DNA of 63,947 nt, filler included, from Reticulomyxa filosa (Eukaryota; Protista; Foraminifera), in assembly GCA_000512085.1 (NCBI GenBank). It is 19 parts of 19 records of this genome, joined end to end, with 100 filler letters (N's around TTAATTAATTAA, not from the genome) between each part and the next. Parts side by side here need not be neighbours in the genome. Positions count along the whole stretch, not along the records: positions 1 to 17,698 come from ASPP01024396.1; 18 more parts are not named here. One strand, 5' to 3'. A program made the position numbers and the translations under genes. Below are positions 102 to 61,608 of the stretch, one piece after another (the first letter of the stretch is position 1; every line of letters begins with the position of its first letter). The notes below the pieces were generated by a model. That model was not told where the DNA came from and made no database searches. It saw only the letters and a program-made list of their open reading frames with translations.

Positions 102-1725
102 TGTCAACGGTTGTATTATTAATCAAATTGTTGTGACACTGAAGGACCGAGAGCAAACCAAAACACTCTTTCAAACAGTAATTTGGGCCAATGTAAGTGA
201 CATTGAGTATACGTTTCATTCCCCGATTGAAGCCTTCCAAAAATGCATCGGTAGACACACATTGCCCAATTTATATACATACGTACCTATTATATATACA
301 TATATAGATGTGCGTATAAATAACTGATGTATGTTTCTTTTTCGCTGTTGTTTATCAATTATTTTATTTGTTGCAAATAGAGAAATTTGGCGATATAGTG
401 ACAAAGACCAGTGAGGACAAAAAGGAAAACGAGATTGCAGAAAGTGAGGGAGAAGAGTCTGTAGAAAACTATTCCGACGATGAACAAGAAGACTATGAAG
501 AAGATGAAGACGATTATGAGGACGAAGAAGAGGACGAAGAAGAGGAAGAAGAAGAAGAAGAAGGTGAACCAGAGATACATAACAAAATATTGTTTCTCCT
601 CCTTTTTTTTTTTAGCTCTCGTGTTTGTTGATCTAGGGGAAAAGGAAAAAGAAAACGCGTTGCCAATAAAAAGCATTAAGATTGAAATTCAACGTCCGAG
701 CTGGTGGATTGAAGAGCCAGGAGAGGAAATGAAAACAAAGTATATCAAAGCCAATATGGAAAAAGACAAGGATGTATTGCGCGCAGTGTCGGAGTTTAAA
801 CAAACGATTGGTGAAACTGGTAATTATGAAATCGTCGACGTTTTCTATATTCAAAATGAAGCCCTTTGGAAGAATCATGAGCTCTTATACAGTTATGTTC
901 CCCTTTTTTTTTTGTTTTTTTTTACTGCGCTGTGTTGGAAATAGAACATTCTCTTCTTTTTCCTTCAATTGATATATACATACCGTATATATATGTATAT
1001 GTTTTTGTGTCATTTCGTTAATCGAAATCACAGACAAATGGCTCGAGACGGAGAGGATTTGCCAAGCAACCACAAATTTTCAATTTTTATGGCATGGTAT
1101 GCTGCTTTGAATATTTGTTGGCAAGTCTCCCGATACACATTTGTTTGCTTGCACATGTTGTCAATAGGGGCATCGTCTGAAAAAATAGATGCAATTACCA
1201 AAAAGGTAAATACTCTGTGAATGCATTGCGCTTTTATTTTATTTGAAGTCACACTTAGTTACACTGTAAAAAAAAAAAGGGATTTGATACCAGTTTTGTT
1301 TCGGGCTCTCACGGATTTGGAACTTATTTTACAAAAAATTGCAAGAATGCGCTTTCCTCGTTTGCTGCGTTTGATAACAAAGATGGATATGCGGAATTGC
1401 TATATTGCCGTGTCATTTGTGGAGAGAGTTGCCTGGGTCAGAAGAATTACTTGAGACCTCTTTGCAAAGAACATGTTGTTAGTCAAAAACAAGAATATGA
1501 AACAATGGTCGATGACAAACGAAATCCCAACATTTTTGTCGTTTGCAACCTAAACCAAAGTATGCTTGTAACAACACATATACTTACATTTTATTTATTT
1601 GTGAGAAAACATAACTTTTTTTTCCCCTCTACTCCATACAAAATGTATTTACGATAGGTTATCCATTGATGAAATTTATAATTAAAAAAGTTGAGAAAGA
1701 TTACTTCTCATTTTTATTTGCTTAA
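102..1725 (+). CDS. PARP-family (likely mono-ADP-ribosyltransferase) protein, multi-exon, 5'-partial
   Basis: Manual GT-AG splicing gives IQNEALWKNH..FLWHG/ASSEKIDAITKK/GFDTSF..HGFGTYF..LLYCRVICG..MVDDKRNPNIFVV..NQ/SYPLMKFII, the PARP catalytic signature (HG, GxYF). Ile replaces the catalytic Glu. An acidic D/E tract lies at 480-560. Confidence 0.8.
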
Positions 1726-6945: not shown

Positions 6946-9900
6946 TTACAAATGAGCTAGCGTACCTTTCAGACAGTGATGAAAATCTCTAAATATTCTG
7001 TTGTTGAATAAATATTGTTGACTAAATAATCCAGCAATTTTATCGGCATGCTTGACAACATGTGGTACTTTAATAGGACCAGGCCAATTTGGATAAAGAC
7101 AGCACAGCGCATAAGTCAAAGCCCCTAAATCATTAACTCCACTTGCGTCAGGATTTCCTAAGTCTAGTCCATCTTCGGCAACAATACAACGAATAGGTCT
7201 TGCGCATTTATCTTTGGGAGCGTTGGAAGTGACCAAGTAAAAATCCCACATGGATGGAGAGACAATTTCCCCAGGTTCATCAATCACCATTCTAGGGCGT
7301 GCGACACAATACGACCATCGTTCGCTTGTTCAAAAAATCGAGCGTTTACTTGTTTTTGAATAATGATAATTTCCAACTTTGGCAAGGGTCTATCGTGATA
7401 TTTTTTCTCAAATGCATACTCTGCAGCGCGTTGTTCTTCTTGTTTCACAAATGCCATTTGTGAAGTTGAAACACCATCTCTATACTCACGCATGCACAAA
7501 CATACATATGCATGTATACACATGTATATAATATATGTATATTTGTATATATGTACATATATATAACCGGTAATAAATAATTTGATCGGGCAAAGCGCCG
7601 TTAATAGATTTGAAATAATTTAAAGCACAAGTTACCATTGAACAAAATGTGTCCAAAGCAAGCACTTCTTTTCCGTGTTCTTGCACCGAAACTTGTGAAT
7701 AAACGCTGACAAAATCGCGATCATAGGTGGACACAAATCCAATGACACTCGCCCCAGCTCCAATGTCATGACACACATCGACGCCAATGATCATAGTTTT
7801 TTTGTCCAAGTTAATGATGCCATCAGGCAAATAAGAAAATAGCGAAGGTGGTGGTTGTTCCAAATTTGCTGGTAGTTGCGGTCTTTGCTGTGGAGCAGAC
7901 AATATTACTTTCCACGGCATCAATCCGATTTTGGTCAACAGTTGTCGAAAGGACCCTTCGGCGGTATGGCGAAATGAACGGTCTTCCATCAAATTGCCCA
8001 TTTGAATACACTGCGAGATCACACCCAGCTTGCAATTACACAAATGTTTAATACGTGCGTACATTTCATTGCTACGATGTGATCCGGATTGCAACAAGTA
8101 CGAATTAGCGCGAAGTGCAACTGGTAACACAACTACCACAGCTTTTTTTTTTTTTTTTGGTTAAGTTGTGGTCTTTTCACATTAAGAGTTCGTGATGTTG
8201 ATTACATCATAAAAAGGGAAAAACAGATTCCAAACCATTGATATCGCAAGCCTCTCTTTGCAACTCATTTTCCAAAGTTTTGAGTGTGTCATCGAAATTG
8301 TAATCCCGTTGTTGAAAAGGGATGGGAATATTGAGAGGATCCAATTCCAAAGCAGTTTCGATACAAGGTTTCAAATGTCCATGACTGCTATAAAACATGT
8401 GTTGGATTTTTAGTTGGAACTCGCGTACTAAATCGCTGACAGCGCGGGGTCTGTCGTCCCCCTCCTGATCGCAAAAGTACACTATCCCCCCATCGGACGA
8501 GATAAGGCTTTTGATCTCCAATCATACCATAGGGTTGCGATTGACTCAAGGCGTGACTCCAATCGTCTTCATTCACAATATCGATCTCCAGACGTGATGT
8601 ATTCCCTTGCAATTTACAAATGGCAACATTGGCAGAAGGCAGCTGCCGAGATTCGACCGTGACAGGCTCTGTAAAATATTCGATGCTCTTCCATTCATTA
8701 TTTCGTCTTTCTCTGTTTTGTTCGCTTCCATCCGCCAAACCGCGTATCAACTCGGTCATATTGTCAACGCGGTCTGACACGGGTATTGAAGCGTGTTTCG
8801 CGACCTCCTTACGCAAGCGTGAATTCTTTTGCTCCTTGCGCGGATATCCCGTTAACCGACACATTTCCGGAGGAAAGTGGAGTGACTTTTGCTCTCGTCG
8901 CAAGTACTTCTCTAACATGGGTAAATCTCTCCTATTAAGTGGCCAGTTATATATGTCAGAAAAGTAGTCCCGGTATGATATCTTTTCGCCCTGCTTGTCA
9001 AATGTGGAGTCAATCGTTTTGGACCAATCCACGCCATGGATGCACTCAATCCGTTGAGTATGCAGCAGTAGTACGTACCGATTTTCCAGTTCCTCGTTAC
9101 ACCGTTTTTCAAATGCTTCGTTATAACCGCCATACTCTTCGAGCCACTTTTTTTACGGTCATATGTTTATATAAATAAATAAATAAATAAATAAATTTAT
9201 TTATTTATTTATATAAACACAACACAAACTTGGTTCATCGACTCTGCCACGGTGCAGGTGGATAATAAGCGCACTCGGTCTCGAACAAACAGGAGTGGCC
9301 CCATTCCGGTGATTTCAAACGACGTGTCAAATCCTCGCAATAACATCAAATCGTCAGACATTCTTCTCCCGTGTTCTGGATTTGTGTCTACAAAGAAATT
9401 GCGACCACAACGGTCAGAACTTTTTTTTTTTTTTTTAATAGTTTATTTGCTCATTTGTTCATTTATTTCCCCCCTTTGCAAAGCCTTTTTTTTTTTTCTA
9501 AGCACAATTCAGAGCGAGCATATTCGATCTGTGTTTGATGTAAGCAATGTGCAGGATCTCTTGCTGCGAAGCATTATTTTCTTCCTCGTTGTCATTGTCT
9601 ACATTGGGGAAATTAACTCTGCCTTGGCATTTGATTCGGACGCTGCGTTCCTCACTATGATCAGACGTAGAATACTTAAACACTTCCTCTCCGTCCACAT
9701 TATTTGGAGAGTATAACACTGAATTGTCAAAATCGAAGTTTCCATATTTTTTTTGGATCTTTTTTCTCAAACTTTTTTTGTTTGTTTTATTTCGAACAGT
9801 CATTTATGACAAATATCTCTTTCATTTTTAATTACTTAACAATCCCTTAATTACATCTGCTCGTTGCTTGTGATTATCTAATGGAATTTCTTCATCTTCT

Positions 9901-10124
9901 GGGCGGTCACTATCTCCAAAGTGTACCATATAGCGGTAGACTGTGGCTGACGATCCCACTCTCACCCGAACCGCATTTACAATCAACCGGAACCTATGTT
10001 CTTTTTTTTATTTTGTCTAACATAAACTAGTCTTTGTTCACTATTTTTATTTTCTCAAACCATTAGGATGGATTTGTCTAAGGGGACGCGTAGGCATGAG
10101 CTCTTCTGTTGAGTTATTACTCAT
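6946..10124 (-). CDS. PIWI-clade Argonaute (N, L1, PAZ, MID, PIWI), 7 exons, with frame disruptions (possible pseudogene or sequencing errors)
   Basis: Introns 10001-10060, 9772-9840, 9420-9505, 9147-9229, 8142-8235, 7480-7567. Motifs FRLIVN..VYRYMVHF, GRNFF, VDWSKTIDSTF..SYRDYF, PPEMCRLTG, YARIK..SQCI, MIIGVDVCH, IIYYR/DGVS, NWPGPIKVP..HADKIA. Confidence 0.9.
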
Positions 10125-10570
10125 TTTCGTTTCTTTTTTTAATAAAAAATAATAAATAGGGAGTGAAGAACTACCAAAAAAAGAGTGGCACTGTCTCTTA
10201 GTGTGCTCGTTTGATTTCAATTTTTTAATTTTTTGTTTGTGTGTGCAAATAGTGAAAATTTGTGATAAATAGTTTAAAATCGATTGGAGCAAATGTATGA
10301 TATTCCATGCACAACAAAAATATTAAAAAAATACGTTCAGCACAAAATATTTATTAAAAAAACTCGTCAATTAAAGTAAATATGATGAAAGAATATGTAT
10401 GAACTGTAACAAATTTAGTGTATTTTATTTTGAATTTTGGAATTTTTGAGTAGTGTAGTAGCTGTGCTTTCTTGTCTTAAATTTTTCTGAATTTTTTTTG
10501 GTCCTTGATTTTTGTTTAATTGCGCACTATGATTATATTTTGTTATGTTGTGTTGTATTGTATCAAACAT

Positions 10571-11778
10571 TAACATTTCTTTAAAAAAAACTTTGCAATG
10601 GCGTCAATTTGCATTAGATTGATATTCCTCCTTTTATGGCTGTTTTTCTATTTTATTTTTATTTATATTTTTTTATATAAAGAAAAAAAGAAATAAAGAT
10701 AGTATTATAAAACTTCACGATGAAGAGTTTTAAATGTAGTCCATCCTTGTCCATATGAATTATGTCTGAGATCAATATCCAATCTCTTTGACGCAAGAAA
10801 TCGTAGCCATTGCTATTGTTATAAAATAAATAATATGATGTAACAAAAAGATATAATAATAAATATATACACTTAACAATAGTAGTGTGATTTAAACCAT
10901 TTGATGTAAAAGCAGATTGCCAAGTAGATATTCCTAAGTGCAAAAGCATAAGACGATAATAAGAAGTAAAAGAATCAGCAATAAAATTCCAATTATATGA
11001 TAAATCTTGAAACCAAATACTTGATTTAGATAAATCTATATTTTACAAAAAATAAATAAATAAATAAATATATACATATATATTTATTTATTAACCATTT
11101 TCAAACATTAAAACCACTTTTCCATTATTACACATTGAATCAATATCAAATCCAATTGGAAATTTACTTTTTTCTCTTATTATTGATTTTTCATTTTGAT
11201 AATTTAAAATAATTTCAACAGTTTCAATAGGTTTAACTTGGGACAATGATGATAAATGCATACAACCCAAAGGTAATATTTCACCTAATTTAAATATATA
11301 TATATAATATTTTATATTATACACTCCATTTTTTATGTAAATTCACAAACCATCATATTTCATTTGCCATTGAAGTAAAAATCCATTAGATATTCTTAAA
11401 AATGACTTATAATCTTCTGGTAATTTACATGGTTGATACTTCTTCATTTTTTTGTTAAATACAAAATATAATTAAATTAAAAAATTTACATTTATTTAAT
11501 CAGAAAATTATCAACTGTTTCCCATTGATATATTTGTTCTTCTGATATTCCTTCTCTTTCAAAAAATTTAACATCTGTTACCCCACGATGCTTTTCTTTT
11601 GTATAAAAAAAAATTTTATCATATATTTTATATTGTAATTAAAAATAAATATACCTAAAAAACTGATAATATCCATTGATATGTCATCAAAGATTTGTCG
11701 AACGTGCTTTTTATTTGTTTTTTTGTTTGCAAAATTCCAATTCGTACAAGTATTTGATAAATTATTTTCTTCATTCAT
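10571..11778 (-). CDS. TPGS2: Tubulin polyglutamylase complex subunit 2-like (SMI1/KNR4 fold), multi-exon, 3' end approximate
   Basis: Exons read LPEDYKSFLRISNGFLLQW, PLGCMHLSSLSQV and IWFQDLSYNWNFIADSFTSYYRLMLLHLGISTWQSAFT. Confidence 0.7.
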
Positions 11779-13049: not shown

Positions 13050-16000
13050 ATGCCGAAACGAGCAGTAAAGCCAGGCCAAACCTCAGGGGACAAAGATACC
13101 CAGACAATATCGCTACGAGAAGGCTGGGACAAGGTTTACTCTGTTGGTGTGATGCCTTTCTTTGAAAGAGTAGAGAACTTTGAGGCAGAGAAATTGAATG
13201 TTACATCGGTTCCTGGGAGTCAATTCAGTTAATTTTTCTAAAATTTCCGAGACGTTATGTTTTTTTTTTGCAAGTTGTTTTTTTGTTTTTGTCCATTTGG
13301 CTGATATTTCCCCCGTCACGAAATCCGAAATCGATGTCTAGTTACAACATACGAGTTACGTACGTGTTTTCGCAACCTCTAATAGAAACAATAACAAAAA
13401 AAAGAGACTTGGAAAGGGGAGAAGGGGGCGAGCAGATGAGGACATGAGAGAGTATGTTGATATCGCAAACAAAAATACTAAGACAAGCGAAAAAAAAACA
13501 ACTTTGCAAAAAAAAAAATAGTACTATTTTCACAATGTGTATTCAACGCGAGCCCTACAATTACTCAAGTGCTTTGTACTCAAAGCATACTGAAGCCTTG
13601 ACAGACCATTTCAAGAAAAAGTTTGTGCCATGTTTGGGAACTGCAAAGGAAGGGGTTGGATATCAATTTTTGCAAGAATGGACCAAAAGATGGCGAATTG
13701 GCAAATGGTGTGTCGACGGGATGACGCGCATGTTCATGTATTTGGTACGTGTCTGTAAAAAAAAGGATGTGAGAAGTTTGTGGAGAGAAAGGGGAAAAGG
13801 GGGGAGTGAAGAGAGAGAAGGAATAACTATTTTTTTAAAAAAAAATGTTTAAGTAATTTCCTTCGTCCCCTCCAAAAAAACTTTTTGTAGCCTTTTTAAT
13901 CGAATGGTAAAAACAGTTGTTACTTTTGTATACACCAAAAAAAAAACAAATGGTTTAATTTAAACAGGACCGCTTTCACGTGCCCAACAGCGAGGATTTG
14001 TTGAACACGAGCGAACAGGGATATACATTGTTCCGTCAAAACGTGTTTGAACCCTTCAAGGAGGTAGCGCGAGAGGCCATATTGGACTGCATTCGACGAG
14101 AGCGCGACAATGAAAGTCAAAATCGAGATTTGCTCCGTGATAGCATAGCTGTGTTTGTGGAACTGGGACAAAAGTTAAAAAAAGTGGAGTTGCAAATTTA
14201 CAAAGAAGATTTTCATCAAGCTTTGGTCGCACAAACACGTGAGTACTACAAACAAAAATCACGTGGTTGGTTGGATCAATTGTCGTGCCCTGAATACTTG
14301 ATTCAAGCAGAGATCTGTGTGGCCTCGGAAGAGGATCGTTTGGCCTCTTATATTGATAAGTCTTCAAGTGAAGGGTTGATGTTGGCAACACGAGAAGAAC
14401 TGTTGAAAGTCCACCAAGACGAGTTACTGGATAAGGAAACAGGTATTAATCGCATGCTGGAAAGAACGCAAGGTGCAGACGCTGAAACAGCCAAAGAGGA
14501 TTTGTCCCGTTTGTATTCTCTTTACAGTGAAGTTGCCAATGGTTTGGTGAAAATTAGTGAGGCAATGAAGCGTCATATATGCGATCTTGGCAACAATTAC
14601 ATCCAAAAATCGAAAGAAAACCAAGGCGAAGAAAAAGGTCATACGTTGATTGTAAATTTGATTGATTTGCATGACCGATTCTTGAAAATTGTGAAAACCA
14701 ATTTCCATCAAGACAAAATTTTCCATGAAGCGTTGAAAGATGCATTCGAGGACTTTATCAACAAGGAGTATTACACCAGCAACTTGTTGGCACGCTATGC
14801 CAATGACATCTTGCAAAAGGGTACAAAAGTTCAAGTAGGAGATTTAGACAGTACCATGGATCACGTGGTCATGTTGTACGGATACATTCGTGACAAAGAT
14901 ATTTTTGAAAAAGATTATCAGCAATACTTGGCTGGTCGTTTGTTGCAGGATTTGTCTCAGTCCGAACAGGCTGAAAGATCAATGATCGGTTTCGTACTTT
15001 GATACTTTGTTTTTTTGTAAGTATACTTACATCGCGGAAAAGAGGAAGAGGGAAGAGAACGTACTTATTGTGTTAATGCGTAAATATACTGATGTTTTCA
15101 AATGTGGTTGATATTATCTACAGGAAAATTGAAGACGGAGAGTGGATACCACTGGACAAGCAAGTTGGAGGATATGTTCAAAGATATCCAACGCAGCAAA
15201 GAGTTGATGGTAGAATTCAACAAAACCCATGGTGTCGAATTTGAAGTAGAGTTGAACGTGTCCGTGTGTACAACTGGTGCTTGGCCATCATCGTCCATCC
15301 AACCTGTCAACAAACCTCCAGAGATTGGACCAATTGCTGATCGATTCCAGCAATTCTATTTGCAAAAGTACAGTGGACGTAAATTGAGTTTCCAATGGGA
15401 CAAAGGGAGAGCTGATGTGATGGTGCAATTTGATGCAAAAAATCGAAAAATCTTGGTCGTCAGCACCTACCAAATGTTGATATTGTTATTGTTCAACCAA
15501 AAACAAACTTGGAGCTTCCAGCAAATCTTGGACGCTACCGGAATTCCAAAGGAAGAGTGTGTGATGCACTTGTTGTCAATGGTCCATCCTAAAGTCAAGG
15601 TTATGCGAAAGAATCCAAACAACAAGGATTGTGAACCTGATCACAAGTTTCAGATCAACCCTGCTTATACCAACCCAAGAGCTAAAGTAAATATCCCAAT
15701 AATGATGAGCATTAAACCTCCAGATCCTAGCCAAAAGAACAAGGAAATGGAGGCTGTGTTGTTGTTGCGAAGACACCAAATGGATGCTGCAGTGGTTCGT
15801 ATCATGAAAGCAAGAAAAACGCTGAGACACCCAGATTTGGTTGCTGAAGTTGTCAAGCAGTTACAAAAAAGATTTGTGCCAAAACCTGTTGATATCAAAA
15901 AACGCATTGCCAACCTCATCGAATTGGAGTATTTGGAACGAGATGAATCGGACAGGTTTGAACATTGTTTATATTTTGTTTTAGTTTGCCTTTCTTTTAA

Positions 16001-16057
16001 CTCCTTTTTTTGTTTGAAATTTGCGTTTATAGGCAACTTTATCATTACAAGCAGTGA
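13050..16057 (+). CDS. Cullin (CUL1/CUL3-like), 6 exons including a 13-nt microexon
   Basis: Exons 13050-13227, 13342-13354, 13522-13744, 13968-14988, 15124-15955, 16033-16057. Motifs DKDIFEKDYQQYLAGRLL, KLEDMFKD and the neddylation domain DAAVVRIMKARK..LIELEYLERD. Confidence 0.95.
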
Positions 16058-17798: not shown

Positions 17799-19070
17799 AA
17801 TCTTATTTTCAAGGCTTTTTCGTAGAATGCAATTGCTATGTCATATTCATCTTTCTCATGATAAGCAAGTCCCAAGTTGTAATATGAATTAGCAACATCA
17901 ATATGATCCTCGCCTAATTTCTCTAATCTTATTTTTAGTTCTTTTTCCCAATATTCAATCGCTTTGTCCCATTCATTTTTCTCATAATAAATATCTCCAA
18001 AGTTGTTATATGAATTAGCAACGTCAATATGATCTTCACCTAATTTATCCAATCTTATTTTCAAGGCTTTTTCGTGGAATGCAATTGCTATGTCATATTC
18101 ATCTTTTTTACTATAACTCTTTCCCAAATTGTAGTATAAATCAGCAACATCAATATGATCTTCGCCTAATATATCTAATATTACACCAAGTACAATTCGA
18201 TAAAACTGAATTGCTTTGTCAAAATTTAATTCTTTACATGAAGAAATACCTAAATTCACAAGATGATTCGTGTCGATAGGCCAAAGAGCAGTGCAAAGTG
18301 ATGAATCAAAATTGTAATTGATAACAGATTGCTCAGTATGAATGAGATATCGTGTGATGTGACAATTCTCAATTCCATAAATAGTGCAATCAACAACATA
18401 AACGCATCCATCGATTGTGATGTTGTCAAATGTTATGCTTTTTGAATGAAAAGAACAAATCTTGTATGGTTCAATTACTATTTGTTTTTTCATGTATTGA
18501 TCCGAATTAAGCATCATAATAAAATAAGTATCTTCGTGAGACTGTTGGTTATTCGCCATTTGATCAAGATTAGAAGCGACAACAACGATTCCTTTTTCTT
18601 CATTTTCAATCATATCTTCAACTATTGTATGAGCTGCTTTAATTGCTTCATTCCATTCCTTTTGTTCCAATTCGATATCTGAATCTTTAAAATCGTCATC
18701 TTGTTTTTCATTATCTTGTTCTGAATACTTCACATCTTCATCGTTGTTTTCTGGTTTGTTTTTTTTTGCATTCTAATTAGTTTCCTTTTGACGTAATCAC
18801 TATTTTAACAAAAAGATTTGCAAAACTGTCATTGAAATCAATATAAAGCAAAACCGGAGTAGCATCAAAGGCAGTTTGGAGTGTTTCGTCGTTGTCAATC
18901 CATTGCCTATTTGCGTCAGCAATTTTAAAATCAAATTTCGTGTCTTCGGATTTGATTTTGTTTTCACTGATTATTTCTTTTACTTTCTCTTCCAAAATTT
19001 TCAATGATAACGAAGTGAATGTCACTTCATACGTTTTTTCTTCAATGTTAACTGACGCTTGAAACGCCAT
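17799..19070 (-). CDS. TPR-array protein (42-aa kinesin-light-chain-type repeats), 3'-truncated by contig end
   Basis: Three near-identical LGEDHIDVAxxYxNxGxxYxxKxExDxAIxxxEKxLKIR units with a 126-nt period. A probable first exon lies at ~18830-19070. Confidence 0.85.
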
Positions 19071-20285: not shown

Positions 20286-20706
20286 GAACAAATGTATTGA
20301 CAATCATCAAATGTTGAATAATCAATACTTCTCACCCCAGTGAATATATTGATTAAGTTGGACGATGAACGAAATGTGTCAAACATGAAGATAATGTATA
20401 TCTATGTTAAAAAATATAATTATGCAAATAGTGTACAAAAAGCAGAATATTTTTTTGATGGTCGTTTTATTGTTTCAATTTTAACAAATAGAATAATTCA
20501 AATATGTGATCAAATGGACAAACACTAGTAATGTCGTGTTCAAGTAAATCTACAATTCAATTATGGGATACAAAATTAGGAATTGAAATACAATAATTAG
20601 AAGGGCATTCTAGTTTTATATCAAGATTAGATATTTCATCAGATGGGAATTTAATTGTATCTTGTTCTAATGATAAAACAATCAGACTATGGATGCCTTT
20701 GTGAAG
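20286..20706 (+). pseudogene. Degenerate WD40-repeat fragment
   Basis: TIQLWDTKLGIEIQQLEGHSSFISRLDISSDGNLIVSCSNDKTIRLW is preceded by a stop- and frameshift-broken repeat (DGRFIVS). Confidence 0.6.
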
Positions 20707-29457: not shown

Positions 29458-29507
29458 CCCTGCTGCGGATACTCCGCTATAAGCCAGACGCCTGCGCCCC
29501 GCGCAGC

Positions 29508-30334: not shown

Positions 30335-31437
30335 AAAAAAAAAAAAAAAAAAAAAAAAAAGGGAATAAATACAAGGTCATCTGTAATGCCACACGATTCC
30401 AAAGAAATCTTGGCCAAGGAAGGATTGGGCTGTGTGCCGAAAAAATCGCCGAGCATTTGGCATTGTTGGACATTGAGCGCGTTGGTGTTGTAAACGAGCA
30501 TCCACAATTGCGGATGGACCGATAGACTTTGCAAGATCTCGTTCCACGCGACGTTGTCGATAGCCCGGTTTTTGCTCAAATGCAATATTTGCAAGCTGCG
30601 ATTACGTCGCAATCCATTGCACAAGATTTTGACCAAATCTTGCTCTTTGTCACTCCCAACATTGCTTTCTTTTTCTTTTTCTTTTTTGATGTTGTTACCG
30701 ATCTTTCTCAACTTCAAAATCATTTCTTTCTTTTTTTGGTTGGCCAAACTCGTTTGACTCAAATTCAACCACTTCAAATGTTGATACTTTTTGTCGTCCA
30801 ATAATTCGTCTGCTATCACGTGCACCAATTCTACATTCATCTCGACACCCGTCATATTTAGTGATCGAATTGGTTCATCTTTTTTTTTTTTTTAAACATT
30901 GTCACCCCCTTTTTTAAAAAAAAAAAATAAAAAATAAAAATATGTGTACGTATTCAATTTAAAACATGTGCTGTCTTTTGCTCGCTCTTGCATATAACGC
31001 GCCACCGCCAACAACTCCTTTCCCTTTATTGGAAACATTGCCAATGTCAACTTTCGTGCTGTCTTATTCTTTGACAACTGTTCAATTATTATTGACGCAG
31101 ATATATCTTCTTCGATTCCTTGCCTAAATCATTTTTTTTTTTTTTTTTTGCATGTTAATTGCGTTCAATCGATGACGAAGAACGTGCGAGGCACAAAAAA
31201 AAAAAAAACAAACATGAAGTTTTCTATGTTTGCACTAATGACAACTCCATCACTTGGATCGGACACTGTTCCAAATGGATCATCCATATTTTCCCAATGA
31301 AGTTGCAATTTGGAATAACAAAAATTATTACAAAGTCTTTTTTGTCGGTGAAACGTAGCTGCTAGTACTGTCCTTGAAACATTTTGGGTGAGCAAGTTCT
31401 TGTCGATTGCTAAAATATCTTTTGTTTTTTTATCCAT
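30335..31437 (-). CDS. Leucine-rich repeat (RNI-like) protein, multi-exon, 3'-truncated
   Basis: LKWLNLSQTSL, LQILHLSKN and LAKISLESCGITD repeats. Confidence 0.75.
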
Positions 31438-31651: not shown

Positions 31652-32296
31652 ATGAATACAGATGATAATGAAAAGAAGATAACACAGGATGAAATACTAT
31701 CAAATTCTTCTCCAGCTGACAAAGATGTTCCAATTCCAGAGGAAAAAGAGCTAATGAATCCTTGGAACAATCCATATGTGGGAGAAGACGAAGAGTGTTT
31801 GAAAAACCCGCACACAAACGAGAGAGAAACCAAAGAGCACAAGAACCAAAGATTGGAAGTTTTGTCATCAAAAAAAAAAAAAAAAAAAAGAGGAAGGGAG
31901 AGGAAGAGGAGGAGGAGATAGAAGGGAGGAAAAGAAAACAAAAACAAAACAACAACAGCAAGAATACAACAGTGCAAAAAAAAATGGGGGGAAAAAAAAA
32001 GGTCGAACACTTTATCAAAGTGACGAAATCAGTGGAATATTATGCATTTTGGGAATTTGAGCGATTTCAAAAGAAACATCAAGACTATTTGTTGCTTCCA
32101 ATAAAATATCGACAAATACTATCGAGCAAACCAAACTACTTTGCATGTGTGCGAAAAGCAATTTTGTGCAATCAGCATTTCTTAACGCAAGTGATCCAGC
32201 GATCGAATCACTATTTGTCGTTTGATAACCAAAGGATGCCCATGTTCTATCGTGTGTCCCGGGCGGAGCGATCTTCCGAAAGTAATATGGACAAAG
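31652..32296 (+). CDS. Hypothetical protein, first two exons
   Basis: MNTDDNEKK..QRLE | intron 31859-32001 | VEHFIKVTKS..SNMDK splices in frame. Head-to-head with the LRR gene. Confidence 0.55.
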
Positions 32297-33934: not shown

Positions 33935-34628
33935 TTATAATGATTTTTTGTCAACGGCATCGACCAAATCGATAGCAGCTTTGGTGATGACCGTGCCAGG
34001 ACCAAAGATAGCAGTGACTCCAGCATCATACAATGCTTGATAATCTTTGGGAGGAATTACACCTCCAGCCACAACCAAAATACTTTCACCACCCTTATTC
34101 TATATTTTCGTTATGTTATGTTATATTCAAAGTCAAAACCGTTTCAATAATTTTAAGTACACAAAAAAAAAAACAACAACAAACCAAACCTTTAAATTTT
34201 TGATCAGTTCGGGAAGTAACGTCAAATGTCCAGCTGTTAAAAAAAAATAAAAATTTTTTAAAAAAAAGTTTCACATTGACCCCCCTCCCCCCCTCTCCCC
34301 TTTTCAAGCATAAAAGTAAGATTAGACAATGGAGCAATGAATGACCTGCTTGAGAACTAACACCAACTATATGGACATCAGCATCAAGTGCTTGTTGTGC
34401 AACTTCCTCAGGCGTGGCAAACAAAGGTCCAACATCAACATCGAATCCCAAGTCTGCCAATCCACTGGCAATGACTTTGGCTCCTCGGTCATGGCCATCT
34501 TGACCCATTTTCGCAACGAGTATTCTTGGTCGACGTCCATGTTTTTTTTCAAACGATTGCACGCGTTTGGCCACATTGTCAAGCAAGTTTTTGTCCGTGT
34601 AGCTGCTTCGATAGGCACCAGAAACGAC
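33935..34628 (-). CDS. MMUT: Methylmalonyl-CoA mutase, C-terminal B12-binding domain, 3 exons, 5'-truncated
   Basis: [39 protein letters not shown]/..[18 protein letters not shown]. Confidence 0.95.
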
Positions 34629-34674
34629 CTTTTTTTAAGTGTTATGTAAAAAAATGCTAAAAAATGTAATATTT

Positions 34675-38475: not shown

Positions 38476-39541
38476 ATGACATCCTCAAATTCTGGATTTA
38501 TAGCCAATTATATATGCTGTTGTCTTTTGAAGAAATCAAAATCCCTTCCATTGCTTGAAGGAAACACAGGTAGAAGAAAACGTATATGAAGAGAAAAAGT
38601 GTCTTTTCGAACAAAGAAGAACAAAAGCAACATATATCAATAACACTTCAATACCTAAGAAAAGCGTTCATTAACAGTGACATTTGGTCCTAACCCCAAA
38701 GGATTAGGGATTAAGGTTAAGGAAACACTAGAGGGGCCAAAAATAATCAAAGTGTCAAGTGAAAAGTGGAACCGATTGCAAACAGTTATGTTCCGTTATT
38801 TTATTTTATTTTAATTTTTTTGGAGGGGGGGGAAAGATGGAGGGAGAACAAGAAAAAGAGAAAAAAAACAGGGCGATAAGTTGGTAGAAATAAATGGAGA
38901 GAACATAGTGGATCGAAAAGCAGAAGATGTTCAATTGGAACTGATGTGCATTGATACCTTTGAAGCTATCCTCACTGTTGAAAGGGGAGGTAAATTGCTC
39001 ACTAAATTCAAAATTTTTTCTCCTCTTTTGATTTTTTCTGTACGTGTTTCTTCTCATTGTCATTCTCCAAAGAATAAACAAACAATAAAAATATAAAAAA
39101 CAAGCTTCGTTTTTGTATGCAAAAAAAAAAAAAAAAAAAAATTTGGAGTCATCAAGGAGCTCTCAATGCAGAGTCTTTTTTTTTTTAGAGTCACTAGTTT
39201 TTGGTATGAGGAGCAAGCAAAATAAGGGGAAAAAAAAAAAGAGATGATGTCAATTGTATGATGTGATTGTGATGAGAATAGTGGAGTCAATAAAGATAGG
39301 CGTGCAAAAGACAGTCCGAAATGACTATGGATTTGACTTCAAATTTAGTAGTGAGGATATGGCATTTGTGGTAGACAAAATACACGTAAATCATTCGAAT
39401 GATATACAAGTTGGGGACAAGTTGTTGTATATTAATGAAATTGATGCATCCATGATGAAGATTGATGATTTGCAATCCATGCTGGACGTGCCAGGAAAAT
39501 CGGTCACTTTAGTAATTGAACGAAGCGTTCAAGTTTCATGA
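38476..39541 (+). CDS. Small tandem-PDZ protein, 4 exons, N-terminal CCC motif
   Basis: MTSSNSGFIANYICCCLL../..PNPKGLGIKVKE..RLQT/GDKLVEING..LTVERG/..DYGFDF..IQVGDKLLYINE..VTLVIER. Confidence 0.8.
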
Positions 39542-53757: not shown

Positions 53758-55648
53758 ATGAGCAAATGCGTCCTTGTTAAAAGCGCAAAAAAAAAATTAA
53801 ACAAAGACTTAGTGCTTGATTTCTGTTCTACCTTTGGGTCAGTGGTCAGCTATAAAAAAGTATCTAAGTCTGTTGCGTTGGTCGAGTTTTCCAATGCAAA
53901 AAGTGCACGCCAGGCAGCGTGTAGTTAATACTTTTTTGTGTGTGTATTAAGATTGAATAATAACATTCCAAAAAAAAAAAAAAGAAAGCGGGGATAGCAT
54001 GGCTCCGGGAAACGGGCAGTGGTGCATGGGTCTAGTTTGGCGTTTGGAAGAAACTCTGTCGACTGTAATAGTGTACAATTTGTCCGTGGGGTATGTTTTA
54101 CTTTATGTAAGTACGTTTGTGTTTCTATCAATAATAACCACAAACTTTTGTACGTATAAATTTTGGAAGGACATCGAAGGATGATTTAATAAATACTTTT
54201 GGTCCATATGGTACCATCATTGACATTCAATTGTGGACAAGATCATCCGAATGCACTGCTACTGAATCTAAGGCAGACGAGGCAGTCGCTCAAATTGTGT
54301 TTGCGAAAATTTCTGAAGCAATTCTTGTTTGCAAAGAAATGAATAACTCCGTTGTTTCCTTTGCAATTAACGATTCTGGCGTAATCGTCAAATTGGCTAA
54401 TCCAGACGCTAAGGTGCTTATATGCATAGACATATATGTATACAAGCCAAACAGATCAACAAAAAATAAATAAATAAATAAGAGCGTATTGTAATGTATA
54501 CTGACCACTTTTTTTTTTTTAAAAATGCTGCGGTTAAAAGTTTTATACGTCCTCTTGCCTGTCAAGTTTTTTTTTTTTTTAAATAAAACAGAAAAAACAA
54601 AAATAAAAGCAAACAAATAAAAAAAAAAGAACGCGAAATGGAGGCGGGATCAGTTCTATTATGTTCTTCATCCCTTGTCGAATACACGTTCAAGCCGTAT
54701 CTTGATCCCATCGTTTTGTTCTATTTTATACTGTACATGCAACTTTTGTTCAAAACAGAATATGTCGAATTGTGAGGGGAGAGGTAAGAGAATGAGGGGA
54801 ACATAATAGACAAAATGGACAACCTGTGAATTGTTTAAATTTGTGTAATACATCTCAAAAAAAAAAAAAAAACAGCAAAAACAAAAAGAAATCAAAGGAA
54901 ATGACGAGTGTAAGGTCATCTTTGGACCGGACCCAAGAAATCCCGGAAAAAACTGGCCAAAATAATATCATTTCGCGTCCTCACTCTGTGACTTCCTGTA
55001 ATTCTTTCACTTCGACTTCAATGTTTTGTTGAATTCATCTTCTCTTCTTGCATATACAGACTGCATGTACATACAGCTGATTCATCAAACATAATGGGAA
55101 CAGAAGCCGAAAAATCCATTCTGAAAAAACTGATGCAATGGATGAAGGTAAAGATCTAACATCAGAAAATCTGTCAAACGTCATTGAAGAATCCAGGACA
55201 AGGATAATTAACTCGGTGCCAACGGGACTGAATCTGGCACTGACAGCAACGACAGCGACTATGACAATGGAGACACCAATAGTAACGCCATCTTTGGCAA
55301 TTTTGCTGACAGTCCCATATATAAGTGATTATTCAAGTGCGGAATGGAGCAGTACCTCTCTTTTAGAATTAGCAAGAATAATGGATCGAGCTGTTGGAAG
55401 ATATTTCAACATGATGCCATTTTCTTTTAATGGCATTGCTTCAACCCACACAAGTTGTTTGTTCATTTTCAATAGTTTTTATTATGTATGTGTGTCATTT
55501 ATGTACATAACACTACACGCAATTTTTTATGTTTCTTTTTTTTTTTTTTATTCTGATTCTCCACGTCATGTTTTTTTTTTTTTTGGATAGTCGAAAATCA
55601 GTAGTGGCAACTGCAGTAACGGATAGCGACTTCCGGCTGACGACGTAG
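53758..55648 (+). CDS. Two-RRM RNA-binding protein, paralog A, multi-exon
   Basis: CSTFGSVVS..ALVEFSNAKSARQA; VIVYNL..FGPYGTIIDIQL..AQIVFAKISEA; NAKWRRD. Confidence 0.7.
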
Positions 55649-56379: not shown

Positions 56380-58432
56380 ATGAGCAAGCAAGTTTTGGTA
56401 TTCAACTTACCGGCCGCTTATACTGAAGTCCAAGTAGTGGAGCGAATGGGCACGTTTGGTTCGGTGACGAGTTGTAAGCTACTGCAGGACAGGACTGTAC
56501 TCGTCGAGTATTTTGATGCACAAGAGGCGCGCCGGGCAGCAATAGGTTTTTTGTATATATCTGGATTTTCGGCACATACTTAGCACAGAAAATACACACA
56601 CAGCGTCAGAGGTGCTAGAAAGTGGAAATAATGAATTGAAAGTAGGTCTTATTTGGTGTCCAAAGGAAATGTTGTCCACAGTCGTTGTTTCCAATTTGTC
56701 ACCTTCGTAAGTTTTTTTTTTTTGCTTTGTGAAGTACGTATTTTATAATTTTTAACGTAAAAAAAAAGTGCATGATATACCCCTAAAACAAGGACGCGTG
56801 TATACGATTTATTCAATGATTTTGGGCTCTACGGTGAAATTGTGGATATTACATTGGAAGAAAAAAAAAAATGGCATAGTCATCAACGCAGTAGCTTAAA
56901 AAAAAAAGATGAAACATTAGTTGCTTGGATTTCTTTTTCTCGAATAGCTAGAGCACTGCGTGCATGTAAGGAACTAAATAATAGCAAACTTGATTATGCC
57001 AATGATAGCTCTGGATTACGTGTTGAACTGAGCAACTTTGATTCACAAGTTTCTGTCCTTTCAACGAGCTTTTGTTGTTTTTTTTTTTTTAGTATACGCA
57101 TTGATGAAGACCATTACGTACTCCTTTTTTTTTAACTCTTGCCCCTTAACAAAAACTCTTGTATACGTCCTCTATATACAAAAAAAAAAAAACAGAATCC
57201 CAAATGGAAAAGAGACGTCTTTCGTTATGTGCGCCTTCCTTCTACTGTGTCTTGTAATCGTGATTCCATCAATTCCAAAATGTTTAGTTTTTTTTTGTGT
57301 AAGAAGGCACATACACATCAAAATGATGATACGAAGAAAGACGCACTTTGTTTTTGGTGTATGCTATGAAATAGGGGGGGGATACAAAGTAAATCATCAA
57401 ATAACAAGGTTATTAAACACACACGTGAATGTCCAAGTTGTGATAGAGCTGCTGATGATGTAATACCGTCGGTGCCAAGTCCTAACAGGCACCCGATGAC
57501 TGGCACATCAGCAGTTAATCCCAATTGCGAAAGGATAAAAAAAAACGAGAACAAATATGATGAAACCAAACACGATAAAGGAGTAATACCAGATAAATCG
57601 AGTCAATTTCCATCACTGCTATTAAACTATAACCAGGCACTCATGCAAGACGAAACAAGGGACGAATTTGACTCCACGGATCCAGGCACGCCATTGCACT
57701 CCAAGAACAAAATCATATGGACATCTTCAATGTTTTGCAAATCTATTTTTCTTCGCACATATTATAGCTTAATAGTAACATAAATACAGAGGCACAAACC
57801 GTACAACGAACTCAGCAGATTTAGATCCTGTTTCCTTGGACACGTCGGAAAGTTGCTCCTTACAATGGATTGGTAGCCCTTATTCTGACGGCACCACCTC
57901 ACAGCAGGATGAGTCGTCATTGGTCATACGAACGCCAACGTTGGCACAGCCATCGATACCAACATGTGGCATTTTGTCAGCGCGTAACGCTGCTCCTGAC
58001 TCTTTGAACATGGAATCGGGTAATTCCTCAGGTTCGAACCGGAATGGTTTGACTGAATCAGTTAAATCAAATATTACTTCGCATTGTATTTCATATATCT
58101 TTTTGTTTATATTTATTATTTGTTTGTTTTTGTAAAAAAAGGTCGAATCAGTCGATCAGGTGGTGCGAGCGCTAAAACAAGGAAAAAGAATGGTCAAAAA
58201 GTCAAGCCGATATTTTCCGCGTAGTCCCAAACAATGCATGATCGGAGACATCATTTATCATGAGCTGAAAGGAGAATATCCAAATGAAGTCGCCAGGCTC
58301 ACTGGTATGCTGTTGGCTTTGCCGATGAAAAAACTAGAGAAAATATATAAAGATAGACTTCTCTTGAGAAAAAGTGCACGGGAATTGATGGAAAAAATTC
58401 AAAAAGAAGCTCAAAAAAAGTTGTATATCTGA
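56380..58432 (+). CDS. Two-RRM protein with C-terminal MLLE/PABC domain, paralog B, multi-exon
   Basis: VLVFNLP..FGSVTSCKL..VLVEYFDAQEARRA; FGLYGEIVDITL..AWISF; NPKWKRD. C-terminus KQCMIGDIIY..VARLTGMLLA. Confidence 0.75.
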
Positions 58433-58925: not shown

Positions 58926-61608
58926 TCAGGACTGTGTCTGCGCATTTCTCTCGTTCATGATTGGACATTGTGCCATAATTTGCCAAAGACCTCGGCTTAC
59001 TTGCCTTTTTTTTTTGGTTTTAAAAGAAAAGAGGTTTATGTGATTGGTTATGTCTTTTTCTCCAACGGCAAAACAAACAAGCAAATAAATAAAAAAAATG
59101 ACGAAACTTAAGTCCAACTTCAGGAAAAGGTGAAACATCAATAAGATTGTGTGGAGATTTTTGATCTTTGTTTGATTTGATATGTTCAATGGCAACTTTA
59201 ACTAAGTCGGTGGCATTGTCAGATAAATTACGTGGCAAGATCCCACCAGATACAACTTTATGTGCCTTAGCAATAATTTTTTCAAAGCATAGCAAGTAAC
59301 CGGCTCCATACTCGAGCAAATACCGAGTGATTTTGAAAATAATAGCGTGGTAATGTTCCATGCCCGGAGACTCCAACAACCCTTCAAAAAAGTTGGCAAT
59401 AACCTTGGCATACGAATCAAAGAAATATTCGACGAGGATCGGCGCAATATCTTTCAGGAATGCCTCTTCATCTTTGATGATTGGTACTCCTTTGGAGGGG
59501 ATATGCTCTTGGAGTTTGTGTCCCAGCTTTTTGGAAAATGGAGCCAAGGCATCTTTCAACCGTCGGAATAATGTGGTCATAGATGTCAACTTTTGTGGGG
59601 AATGACGACTGTGATAGCAAAGATAAGGCAAGACCGCAATCAACGCCAACAAAGGTCTCAAATTGGTTCGGTCTATGATATTGTCCATTTTCACAATCAA
59701 CGCATCTTTGATGATCTTGAAGCATAAATCTTCATGTTGTGCTCTCAAAAATCCTTGCAGCAGATATTGCTGGACACCTTCAAAGCGAGGGCTCCATTCT
59801 TCGCAATAGCTCCAAAACTTTGGAGGTAGTCCATTTCTCTCCGCTTGCATCTCCATTTCCATTTCGATTTGCATATCCATTGGAATGGTTTCCATTTGGC
59901 TATCGTCATTGGGATACGAAAAATCAGAGTTCCATCAACATCCACTTCATCCATTGGCGTCGTATACGGCGACAAGCTTACATCGAGCTCACTGTCATCT
60001 TGCGACATGGACGTGTATCGTTGAAGTTTGAGAGTAGTGTTTTTCGCATTTTCACTGTCGTTTTGGACAACAGCAGGGCGCTGTTCGCTGATCGAAATGA
60101 AAATGATTTCCTCCTCGTCGTCCTCTTTCTCCTTAGTTTTATTCTTGCTCGTGTTTGGACTCGTCTTTTTCAGCAGTTCGGGCAGTTGAATCACGTTCGA
60201 GTTAGTGTTAGTGTTAATATTAGTATTAGTATTAGTATTAGTATTAATATTAATGTTGGCAGTCAACTTGGTGCTTGTGTCATCTCGAGTGCCACTCTGC
60301 GACGCATTATTCTTTGTCGATGGCACCTCTCGCAACTTTGCTGGAACGATCTCTTGAACATTTGTTTCGATAAAGTATTGCGGATTGTGAGACTGATCCA
60401 AGTTGATTCCCACCAACTCCAAGCCTTTTTGTGTGCACATTCAAATTGGCGAAACTCGAAACACAAATAAACAAGCCGAATAAAACAAATAATAAATAAA
60501 TAAATAAATAAATAGATAAAAATAATAAACCTTTTTCAAAGAGTAGACTTTCATGGTCGTTTCTAGCATTGGCTCGCATTAATGCAATGCCTGCCCAGAA
60601 CAAAGCAGGGTATTCATGCAATTTTTGTTGCAAACGCAACGTGGAGGCCATTTTCAACAGGGTTTCTAAAACGCGAAGACACTCGAAATGCTCTTTGGGA
60701 ATGGCCTGTTTGTTGTTTTGAAATTTGGTGGCATTGTCCCATTGGTCAATGGCTCCCACCAATGCCAAGAGCATGACTTTGACGGCGGCGTGGTTTAAAG
60801 GATTGAGCAGTTGACGATACACGTGGAACGCTCGTTGTGAAATGTCTTGGTTGGTGGACAGCACCGCCCATCGTAAAGCCTCGTATCCGATCCGATCTTT
60901 CGCTTTCAATTCCGGCATCAGCACTTGGCAATACTTGTCAACAAACACGGCCCCATCCATGGCCACTTTGCCGGCGCGATCGATTGTGAATGCCTGGAAT
61001 TGCTGCTGGCGTTGCTGTTGTTCCCAAACCAACTGCAGATCACGAGACTTTAATGCGGTTGCAACCGACACCTGCTCGTAATTGATCTGTTCGTTTTGCA
61101 ACGACGTCAGGTCCTTCGCCAAACATAGCGTGCTCATCATTCGAACAAGCAAGTGTCTCAGCTGTCGGGGATTGCTGCTAATCGATATAAAGATGGACGC
61201 GTATAACACCAAGACTGGAAAGAACGGGATAATCGGACGACTATCGACTCCGATTATATCAACCAACAGCGACGCAGCTAGATCCGCTCGTCTCTCCACT
61301 TGACCACGAGATATCGTCGGCTTGCCGCTTGCGTCCGCCTTCTTAATATCCGACGCTGCCGAGCTATCCTCACTCTTTTTCTCGTCCATGTGGCCTTGAA
61401 ATCCATAATCCAGTCGATACTTCTGGTCAGTCTTGTTGTAATTGCCTTGTGCTTTCTCTTCTTCCGCTATTCGGTCTTGGTAGCACGTCAAGATCTCGCC
61501 ACTGCGATGACGAATCTTTAAATTCGTTTTGCTGTACTCGTCCATTCCAATCGTTAACACCCGTAACAACATGCGGACAATATAATATGTGATTAATTTT
61601 CGAGACAA
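58926..61608 (-). CDS. FRY: Furry/MOR2/TAO3 family protein, C-terminal part
   Basis: EALRWA..SQRAFHVYRQLL, LFWAGIALM and FEGVQQYLLQG motifs. Introns near 60425-60530 and 59006-59107. One 1-nt frameshift near 59931. Confidence 0.7.

What the first reader, a model, noticed from the sequence alone, without database searches (positions are those of the whole stretch)
8142..10060. Introns with poly-A acceptor tracts instead of polypyrimidine tracts, and GTT donors
Seen: splicing conserved genes by frame and homology puts the acceptor after an A-run in five of six PIWI introns (e.g. aaaataaaaaaaag|, aaacaaaaaaag|, A16-g|, ccgtaaaaaaaag|). The same occurs in PARP (~1279), cullin intron 2 (13521), LRR (~30880), 31859-32001, MMUT (34629), PDZ (~38871), RRM (~54629, ~57196, ~58141) and Furry (~59006). 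Most of these end in AAG rather than YAG. Donors are mostly GTT (gtttga, gttaag, gtttgt, gtttgg, gttaat, gttacg, gtttcg), not GTRAGT. Known: U2AF2 needs a U-rich tract and U1 pairs with GURAGU. Inference: this lineage may use an altered 3' splice-site recognition system (changed or dispensable U2AF2, an A-binding factor, or structure-aided definition) and a variant U1/U6. Other introns here have ordinary U-rich ends, so two classes may coexist.
Basis: partly seen in the sequence, partly recalled or inferred. Interest (0 to 1): 0.75.

Follow-up and report, generated by a model that had tools for sequence, protein, structure and literature searches.

The report
Foraminiferan introns ending in A-runs
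In the amoeba-like protist Reticulomyxa filosa most introns start GTT and lack the usual pyrimidine-rich end, and about a third of those mapped here end in a run of adenines, which likely means its splicing machinery has shifted to favour adenines there, an extreme form of a trend also seen in Dictyostelium and ciliates.

Summary
Real, but narrower than claimed. The window is 19 concatenated contigs of Reticulomyxa filosa. No RNA-seq or genome was available, so 41 introns were mapped by homology (26) or reading frame (15). Donors are GTT in 29 of 41; GTRAG occurs in 1. There is no polypyrimidine tract. An A-run of 7 or more touches the acceptor in 14 of 41 (13 of 39 versus 9 of 132 intron decoy AGs and 35 of 965 intergenic AGs after AG-exclusion matching). 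AAG is not the majority (16 AAG, 25 YAG), but 11 of 16 AAG acceptors carry the run versus 3 of 25 YAG. Position -4 is A in 23 of 26 homology-pinned introns. Hairpin bridging, an introner origin and two compositional classes were not supported. A 2019 supplement table already gives 52% purine-rich acceptors genome-wide for this species (protist mean 14%; Dictyostelium 34%, Ichthyophthirius 54%). Best reading: U2-type introns with an inverted U-rich-to-A-rich polarity, likely read by a diverged U2AF. U2AF2, U1 and U6 could not be examined. New variant of a known kind.

The parts
6946..10124 (-). PIWI/Argonaute gene, 7 exons, PAZ and Piwi domains; apparent single-base frameshifts near 8490 and 7295 and a frame offset at intron 3
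10001..10060 (-). PIWI intron 1, GTTTGA donor, A7-G acceptor
   Evidence: top of 24 candidate pairs against 2 homologues; gap near junction
9772..9840 (-). PIWI intron 2, GTTAAG donor, A7-G acceptor
   Evidence: top of 41 pairs, score 123.5 versus 108
9420..9510 (-). PIWI intron 3, A16-G acceptor at 9420; donor unresolved (about 9506-9519), excluded from counts
9147..9229 (-). PIWI intron 4, GTTTGT donor, A7-G acceptor, internal inverted repeat (fold z -10.6)
8142..8235 (-). PIWI intron 5, GTTTGG donor, A16-G acceptor
   Evidence: same junction in P0001
7480..7567 (-). PIWI intron 6, GTTATA donor, TATAG acceptor, no A-run
1206..1279 (+). PARP-like gene intron, GTAAAT donor, A11-G acceptor (1 of 6 introns in this gene with an A-run)
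   Evidence: junction judged on a recalled PARP motif
13228..13341 (+). cullin intron 1, GTTAAT donor, TCTAG acceptor
13342..13354 (+). 13-nt cullin microexon required for the conserved ITTYD stretch
13355..13521 (+). cullin intron 2, GTTACG donor, A-run then TAG acceptor
   Evidence: top of 19 pairs, 161 versus 145.6
13745..13967 (+). cullin intron 3, GTACGT donor, AACAG acceptor
14989..15123 (+). cullin intron 4, GTTTCG donor, TACAG acceptor
15956..16032 (+). cullin intron 5, GTTTGA donor, TATAG acceptor
   Evidence: 764-codon model without internal stop
30879..30965 (-). LRR-like gene intron, GTTTTA donor, A14-G acceptor
   Evidence: frame continuity only
31859..32001 (+). purine-rich intron, GTTTTG donor, A9-G acceptor
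   Evidence: frame continuity only
34629..34637 (-). methylmalonyl-CoA mutase acceptor, A-run then G at 34629; donor lies beyond the contig end, not counted
34100..34345 (-). two further mutase introns (34345-34234, T-rich end; 34189-34100, A-rich end with TAG)
   Evidence: 19 residues between human positions 663 and 683 are matched exactly
38785..38871 (+). PDZ gene intron, GTTATG donor, A8-CAG acceptor
53924..54629 (+). RRM paralogue A, three introns (53924-53984 A14-G; 54091-54169; 54414-54629 A10-G)
   Evidence: paralogue alignment, same three positions as paralogue B
56546..57195 (+). RRM paralogue B, three introns (56546-56603; 56707-56792; 57049-57195 A-run then CAG); unused A9-G at 56769 is followed by an in-frame stop
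58061..58141 (+). intron before the MLLE exon, GTTAAA donor, A7-G acceptor
   Evidence: frame continuity only
59005..59107 (-). Furry-like gene last intron, GTTTCG donor, A10-G acceptor; a paralogue on another contig has a poly-Lys read-through at the same place
   Evidence: P0207
60425..60530 (-). Furry-like gene intron, GTTTAT donor, A5-G acceptor
   Evidence: spliced junction in paralogue P0206

Best explanation
These are short GT-AG introns that run U-rich at the start and A-rich at the end with no pyrimidine tract, and they are likely cut by a U2-type spliceosome whose 3' splice-site reader (most likely a diverged U2AF) has lost its need for uridines and likely favours adenines. Shown: donor consensus G|GT(T>A)(A/T) with little information beyond +3; acceptor A-[A/C/T]-AG, never GAG; an A-run against the AG in about a third of introns, mainly those ending AAG. 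Inferred: the introns (median 90 nt) are recognised across the intron; the weak GUU donor is helped by the U-rich stretch behind it (TIA-1/Nam8-type binding, recalled) with or without a changed U1; the intrinsically weaker AAG end needs the A-run as an added positive cue, whereas YAG ends mostly get by with the -4 A; the branch site is degenerate.
For: A>=7 run at 13 of 39 acceptors versus 9 of 132 and 35 of 965 matched background AGs; T>=7 run at 2 of 39 versus 35 of 965, so A but not T is enriched although either would be an AG-free spacer. Given the ending AAAG, 11 of 14 true acceptors have A>=7 versus 30 of 258 intergenic and 8 of 41 intron decoys. -4 A in 23 of 26 pinned introns and 13 of 14 of their YAG ends versus 234 of 634 intergenic YAG. 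Composition +3..+20 T 0.48/A 0.27, -20..-3 A 0.52/T 0.26 in 24 pinned introns; A6+ runs by quartile 2,2,2,14 and T6+ runs 8,5,5,1. Not a mirror of the donor end: A7 at 3' end 14 of 41, T7 at 5' end 3 of 41 (p 0.005). Paralogous introns with otherwise different sequence keep A-rich ends (RRM pair; Furry P0205, P0207). Genome-wide, 31,807 of 60,647 annotated acceptors are purine-rich, with A at -4 in 72.6% and at -3 in 61.65% of these (PMC6339879 Tables S1, S3), while A/T-rich Plasmodium reichenowi has 2.8-2.9%. The passage read in PMC6339879 raises co-evolved 3' SS factors (LS2, U1) as a possibility for fungi and protists.
Against: No splicing factor or snRNA sequence was seen, and no transcript of this species. 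By the published purine-rich measure, true acceptors (23 of 41) are no richer than decoy AGs (92 of 136 sense, 82 of 141 antisense), so part of the 52% follows from AG lying in purine blocks. The 20 bases before start codons are also A-rich (A 0.455, T 0.264, n 11, p 0.02). A>=8 runs outside curated introns also end in G in 40 of 104 cases. The -4 A excess among YAG ends is not significant against intron decoys when frame-only introns are included (p 0.24-1.0). The sample is 41 hand-curated introns from a window chosen because it showed the pattern.
Confidence: 0.45

Rival explanations
1. Passive signal: the spliceosome simply takes the first non-GAG AG after a degenerate branch site without any tract, and the U-to-A gradient is a property of all non-coding spacers (slippage, or poly(dT)-then-poly(dA) nucleosome-edge layout) in a homopolymer-rich genome.
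For: A-rich bases also precede start codons and T-rich bases tend to follow stops (0.43 T versus 0.33 A, not significant); decoy AGs are as purine-rich as true ones; AAG share equals background; a passage in PMC12862383 says Paramecium introns at nucleosome edges splice better.
Against: A-runs exceed background 4- to 9-fold after matching for AG-free upstream sequence and for the AAAG seed; no mirror T-runs at donors, 0 of 16 GTTT donors reach T7; only 1 of 11 start codons has an adjacent A7 run.
Confidence: 0.25
2. U2AF is unchanged or dispensable and a separate poly(A)-binding protein (PABPN1/Nab2-type, recalled) marks A-run acceptors as a distinct intron class.
For: Strong coupling of the run with AAG (11 of 16 versus 3 of 25); runs of 7-16 A.
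Against: No two-component structure in 3' composition; -4 A is shared by run and no-run introns; same lengths (87 versus 98 nt, p 0.67); paralogous introns switch type.
Confidence: 0.12
3. The U-rich 5' end pairs with the A-rich 3' end, bridging the splice sites as in zebrafish (AC)m-(GT)n introns that do not need U2AF2.
For: The polarity is complementary on average; mean fold z -0.76, p 0.04, with a few strong hairpins such as PIWI intron 4.
Against: No co-occurrence across introns (rho 0.03, p 0.9); own 5'-3' duplexes no better than swapped (p 0.20 and 0.16); several A-run introns have z above 0.
Confidence: 0.08
4. Artefact: homopolymer sequencing errors and my or the reader's choice of boundaries create apparent A-run acceptors.
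For: The assembly shows apparent single-base frameshifts (PIWI near 8490 and 7295, Furry near 59935); PIWI intron 3 and the myosin intron need a one-base offset or a GAG and were dropped; no transcript evidence; the NCBI models mis-splice these genes (P0001, P0204, P0207).
Against: Such errors change run length, not presence; cullin, mutase, RRM and Furry junctions are fixed by homologues or paralogues; the independent annotation-wide table shows the same direction.
Confidence: 0.07
5. The A-run introns are poly(A)-tailed mobile insertions (retro-type introners) whose tail abuts a target-site AG.
For: 3' A tails; two introns have 7-base flanking repeats.
Against: Mean flanking repeat 1.39 versus 1.34 permuted (p 0.29); all-versus-all blastn gives only short low-complexity matches (longest 52 bases at 75%), no family; positions shared between diverged paralogues.
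Confidence: 0.03

Closest known systems
Purine-rich 3' splice sites of A/T-rich protists in Nguyen and Xie 2019 (PMC6339879; section 5, passages, rows of Tables S1-S4 seen)
   Same: R. filosa itself is tabulated: 52.4% of 60,647 annotated acceptors. Dictyostelium (34.2%) and Tetrahymena (32.9%) subsets also have A at -4 (88.7%, 82.6%) and -3 (51.6%, 50.3%); Ichthyophthirius 54.3%, Rozella 39.3%, Naegleria 30.2%.
   Different: The paper is about G tracts; 'filosa' does not occur in its main text. It does not test A-runs against background, the AAG coupling, or donors. Other rhizarians are low (Plasmodiophora 10.6%, Bigelowiella 11.6%).
Entamoeba GUUUGU donors with co-evolved U1 (Roy and Bowser, bioRxiv 10.1101/2022.06.08.495308; abstract, introduction, passages seen)
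   Same: U at donor +3, no GURAGU.
   Different: Entamoeba is intron-poor with 88-90% GUUUGU and a fixed branch site; here GTTTG is 6 of 41, GTTT 16, GTTA 12, no branch motif enrichment, and the genome has tens of thousands of introns.
Species without a polypyrimidine tract (most fungi; Trichomonas, Giardia, Yarrowia) in Irimia and Roy 2008 (PMC2483917; passages seen)
   Same: No U tract before AG.
   Different: Those three anchor a strong branch site 2-4 nt from AG; none is detected here, and no A-run is described in the passages read.
Zebrafish (AC)m-(GT)n structured introns (Lin et al. 2016, PMC4691745; first part and passages seen)
   Same: Complementary composition at the two intron ends; would explain U2AF2 independence.
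   Different: Its defining co-occurrence within introns is absent here.
Bonamia ostreae introns with GTTT starts and A-rich AAG ends
   Same: Same two signals in another rhizarian.
   Different: Very short introns of a reduced parasite; the notes disagree on whether the A-rich end exceeds base composition; not tested here. PMC11069148 (passages) calls them only canonical.

Membership tests
U2-type spliceosomal introns | GT...AG termini restoring a conserved reading frame | tested here: met
   only GT/GC-AG pairs were enumerated; PIWI intron 3 has no in-frame GT donor
U2-type spliceosomal introns | exon G at donor -1 and avoidance of GAG acceptors | tested here: met
   -1 G in 13 of 24 pinned introns; GAG 0 of 41 versus 110 of 962 intergenic, after dropping the one myosin intron that ended GAG
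U2-type spliceosomal introns | GTRAGT donor consensus | tested here: not met
   GTRAG 1 of 41, GTT 29 of 41
U2-type spliceosomal introns | polypyrimidine tract | tested here: not met
   pyrimidines 0.41 at -20..-3 versus 0.50 in intron bodies; minimal polyT motif 17 of 41 at the 3' end, 18 mid, 21 near the 5' end
U2-type spliceosomal introns | branch-site motif (YTRAY) | tested here: inconclusive
   no enrichment over shuffles, p 0.15-0.93; weak branch sites are usual in intron-rich species (PMC2483917 passage)
U2-type spliceosomal introns | U1, U2, U6, U2AF1, U2AF2, SF1 present and canonical | not testable with these tools
   no genome; no Rfam hit in window; Fig. 2 of PMC10245619 lists R. 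filosa components but figures are not held; no R. filosa row in the PMC9887622 supplement held
U12-type introns | GTATCCT/ATATCCT donor and U11/U12 snRNAs | tested here: not met
   no such donor among 41; 0 minor snRNAs for R. filosa in PMC11347168 Table S7
Entamoeba-type GUUUGU system | near-uniform GUUUGU donor | tested here: not met
   GTTTG 6 of 41
Entamoeba-type GUUUGU system | U1 with ACAAAC pairing site | not testable with these tools
   no U1 sequence available
Structured (bridged) introns | complementary ends co-occur within the same intron | tested here: not met
Introner elements | sequence families and target-site duplication | tested here: not met
   (41 introns only)
Purine-rich 3' splice sites (Nguyen and Xie definition) | 5 or more purines at -10..-3 | tested here: met
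   23 of 41 (16 of 26 pinned) versus 0.36 of intron-body windows, p 0.006; but decoy AGs reach 92 of 136

The most novel reading that the evidence does not exclude
An intron-rich eukaryote has inverted the splicing code: a poly(A) tract has replaced the polypyrimidine tract as the positive 3' signal, read by a U2AF2 with switched specificity, alongside a U1 adapted to GUU donors, and the same rewiring may extend to other rhizarians such as Bonamia.
Probability: 0.25. Interest if true: 0.78.

Novelty: new variant of a known kind. Interest (0 to 1): 0.42.

Why it matters
It gives a natural test of whether the polypyrimidine tract is a requirement of U2AF2 or a co-evolved preference: A-runs are one mutation from a premature AG, and PMC10946897 (abstract and section 3.6 read) finds pyrimidines over-represented near intron ends in all eight species it examined, so their enrichment here needs a positive cause. 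With about 60,000 annotated acceptors R. filosa would be the large-sample case. Practically, it helps explain why the public gene models of this reference foraminiferan read through or invent introns (P0001, P0204, P0207), and PMC11347168 Table S4 classes only 6,244 of 50,607 of its introns as major (12%, against 44-61% in Plasmodiophora, Tetrahymena, Dictyostelium and Bigelowiella), though bad annotation would also lower that figure.

Tried and rejected
No RNA holder was listed for window 7000-11000, so no reads were laid. No whole genome held. A metagenome scan with the cullin alignment returned 4 intronless transcript contigs and no genomic foraminiferan locus, so other foraminiferan introns were not seen. 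The base after A-runs (G in 29 of 56 runs of 10 or more, versus G before in 8) looked decisive but C precedes 30 of 56, i.e. T-runs also end in G, so it was not used. Branch-motif enrichment, hairpin bridging, two-component mixture, donor +3 by acceptor -3 coupling (GTT in 12 of 16 AAG and 17 of 25 YAG introns), flanking repeats and intron families: all negative. 3'-end accessibility with A/T swapped: 0.52 versus 0.44 unpaired, p 0.20, inconclusive. Dropped before counting: PIWI intron 3, the myosin intron 36454-36380 (kept, n 42; dropped from then on, n 41), the mutase acceptor at 34629 and other introns cut by contig ends, and introns whose boundaries I could not fix (second PDZ intron, distal RRM A introns, contigs 20286-22433 and 49308-50652). 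The two Furry introns moved from frame-only to pinned (24 to 26). Ten literature searches found no held paper whose main text describes A-run acceptors or GTT donors in R. filosa; the 2014 genome paper (seen only as a reference), Schwartz et al. 2008 (not held) and Nguyen et al. 2018 (seen only as a citation) were not read and may show the logos. The Globobulimina supplement gave no intron sequence in the passages and one of 12 parts read. File 2 of the PMC6339879 supplement was not searched.
Full report
Source. The window is 19 contigs joined by N spacers. A PIWI exon matches an NCBI protein of Reticulomyxa filosa at 100% on a 17,698-base contig, the length of the first contig here, and a Furry-like exon matches RFI_16323 at 99% on a 9,744-base contig. 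One contig (29165-30234, 66% GC, transglycosylase SLT domain) looks bacterial and was left out of run counts. No genome and no RNA run were available, so all splice sites rest on protein homology or frame.

Mapping. For PIWI, all frame-compatible GT/GC-AG pairs were scored against homologues. Intron 3's A16-G acceptor ranks first but has no in-frame GT donor; the gene has two other apparent one-base frameshifts, so an assembly error is likely, and the intron was excluded. Cullin homologues from foraminiferan transcript sets (up to 77% identity) fix five introns and a 13-nt microexon, giving a 764-codon model: four of five donors are GTT, one acceptor has an A-run, none ends AAG. Mutase junctions fit human numbering exactly. 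Two RRM paralogues share three intron positions. Furry paralogues show the spliced junction of one intron (P0206) and a poly-Lys read-through of the other on a different contig (P0207). PARP junctions were judged partly on recalled motifs; the exon itself matches PARP structures only weakly (E 0.003). In all 41 introns were counted, 26 pinned and 15 by frame (52-256 nt, median 90).

Donors. +3 is T in 29 of 41 (18 of 26 pinned), A in 9; background 837 of 2046. GTRAG occurs once, GTTTG 6 times, GTTT 16, GTTA 12; information is 0.35 bit at +3, at most 0.21 beyond, and 0.58 at exon -1. This is a weak G|GT(T>A)(A/T) site, not the strict Entamoeba motif.

Acceptors. -3 is A 16, C 13, T 12, G 0; the AAG share equals background, so AAG is tolerated rather than preferred. 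-4 is A in 31 of 41 and 23 of 26 pinned. Pyrimidines are lower at -20..-3 (0.41) than in intron bodies (0.50). A rises from 0.29 at +3..+12 to 0.54 at -12..-3 while T falls from 0.45 to 0.27. An A>=7 run touches the acceptor in 14 of 41; with 12 AG-free bases required, 13 of 39 versus 9 of 132 intron decoys and 35 of 965 intergenic AGs, and T runs are not enriched. Conditioning on AAAG does not remove it (11 of 14 versus 30 of 258). Runs go with AAG (11 of 16) far more than YAG (3 of 25).

Results against. Without PIWI the A-over-T excess is borderline (p 0.05-0.07), and without the 13 reader-named introns it vanishes, though -4 A (18 of 28) and GTT (18 of 28) stay. Bases before start codons are similarly A-rich, without runs. 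Decoy AGs are as purine-rich as true acceptors by the published measure. A perfect A9-G at 56769 is not used. The window was flagged for this pattern, so a third may overstate the genome. Many contigs end in intronic A or T runs, which could bias the other way.

Genome-wide check from print. Nguyen and Xie 2019 (PMC6339879; section 5, passages and table rows read) count 31,807 of 60,647 annotated R. filosa acceptors as purine-rich (52.4%; protist mean 14%), with A at -3 in 61.65% and at -4 in 72.6% of them. That implies at least 19,609 AAG acceptors, 32% of all, close to my 39%. The independent-base expectation is 39% purine-rich. Ichthyophthirius (54.3%), Rozella (39.3%), Dictyostelium (34.2%), Tetrahymena (32.9%) and Entamoeba (about 30%) are also high; Plasmodium reichenowi (2.8-2.9%), Plasmodiophora (10.6%) and Bigelowiella (11.6%) are low. 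These figures rest on automatic gene models, which are visibly wrong for genes in this window.

Mechanism. Shown: the signals above. Rejected in this sample: bridging hairpins, introner origin, two compositional classes, a simple DNA-symmetric mirror, neutral growth from an AAAG seed. Inferred: a U2-type spliceosome working across short introns, with a 3' reader that no longer needs uridines and favours adenines, the run compensating for an AAG end (0.45). The passive or chromatin explanation stays open (0.25) because of the A-rich bases before start codons. Whether U1, U6 or U2AF2 have changed is untested.

Comparison and verdict. It works like the tract-less acceptors of fungi and A/T-rich protists and has an Entamoeba-like +3 U without Entamoeba's uniformity. 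It fails the GTRAGT and pyrimidine-tract features of textbook U2 introns but meets the terminal ones. Unchecked notes of this scan report GTTT donors and A-rich AAG ends in the rhizarian Bonamia; they led me to the Entamoeba preprint and are not evidence. The raw number for R. filosa is in a supplement; the A-run/AAG coupling, -4 A and GTT majority were not found described in ten searches of the held library, with the genome paper unread. Papers seen: PMC6339879 (section, passages, supplement rows), PMC11347168 (sections 7 and 16, passages, Table S4 part, S7 rows), bioRxiv 2022.06.08.495308 (first part, passages), PMC4691745 (first part, passages), PMC10946897 (abstract, section 3.6), PMC2483917, PMC10245619, PMC11069148, PMC13746701, PMC3079666, PMC5953543, PMC12862383, PMC13685798 (passages), PMC6783311 (passages, one supplement part), PMC9887622 (supplement search only, no hit). 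New variant of a known kind; interest 0.42.

Noticed in passing
window 13342-13354 (+): 13-nt microexon in the cullin gene between two GTT introns; needed to match the conserved ITTYD stretch of homologues.
   Followed up: yes
window 29165-30234: 66% GC contig with a transglycosylase SLT domain and a second ORF resembling DNA polymerase III delta (recalled; no Pfam hit); likely a bacterial contaminant in the assembly.
   Followed up: partly
window 6946-10124 (-): PIWI has apparent one-base frameshifts near 8490 and 7295; protein P0054 (87% identical) reads through the second in frame. The NCBI model P0001 lacks the first four exons and bridges the shifts with invented introns.
   Followed up: partly
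window 53758-58432 (+): Tandem RRM paralogues with three shared intron positions; the second ends in an MLLE domain, a PABP-like layout.
   Followed up: partly
window 9147-9229 (-): PIWI intron 4 holds a near-perfect inverted repeat of a TAAA/TTTA microsatellite (fold z -10.6).
   Followed up: partly
window 31859-32001 (+): 143-nt intron made almost wholly of purines with scattered C, with A-runs at both ends.
   Followed up: no
window 59900-59960 (-): Apparent frameshift in the Furry-like gene; at least four Furry-like paralogues are annotated in this species.
   Followed up: partly
whole window: Long A-runs tend to read C-A(n)-G on one strand (C before 30 of 56, G after 29 of 56 runs of 10 or more), a strand-symmetric capping pattern of unknown cause.
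   Followed up: no
window 26398-29064 (-), 17799-19070 (-): A 15-repeat WD40 protein and a TPR-repeat protein.
   Followed up: no
proteins P0010, P0061: Two homologues from unnamed sources contain in-frame insertions that look like read-through introns; in P0010 the residues are compatible with an ACAG acceptor. DNA not seen.
   Followed up: no
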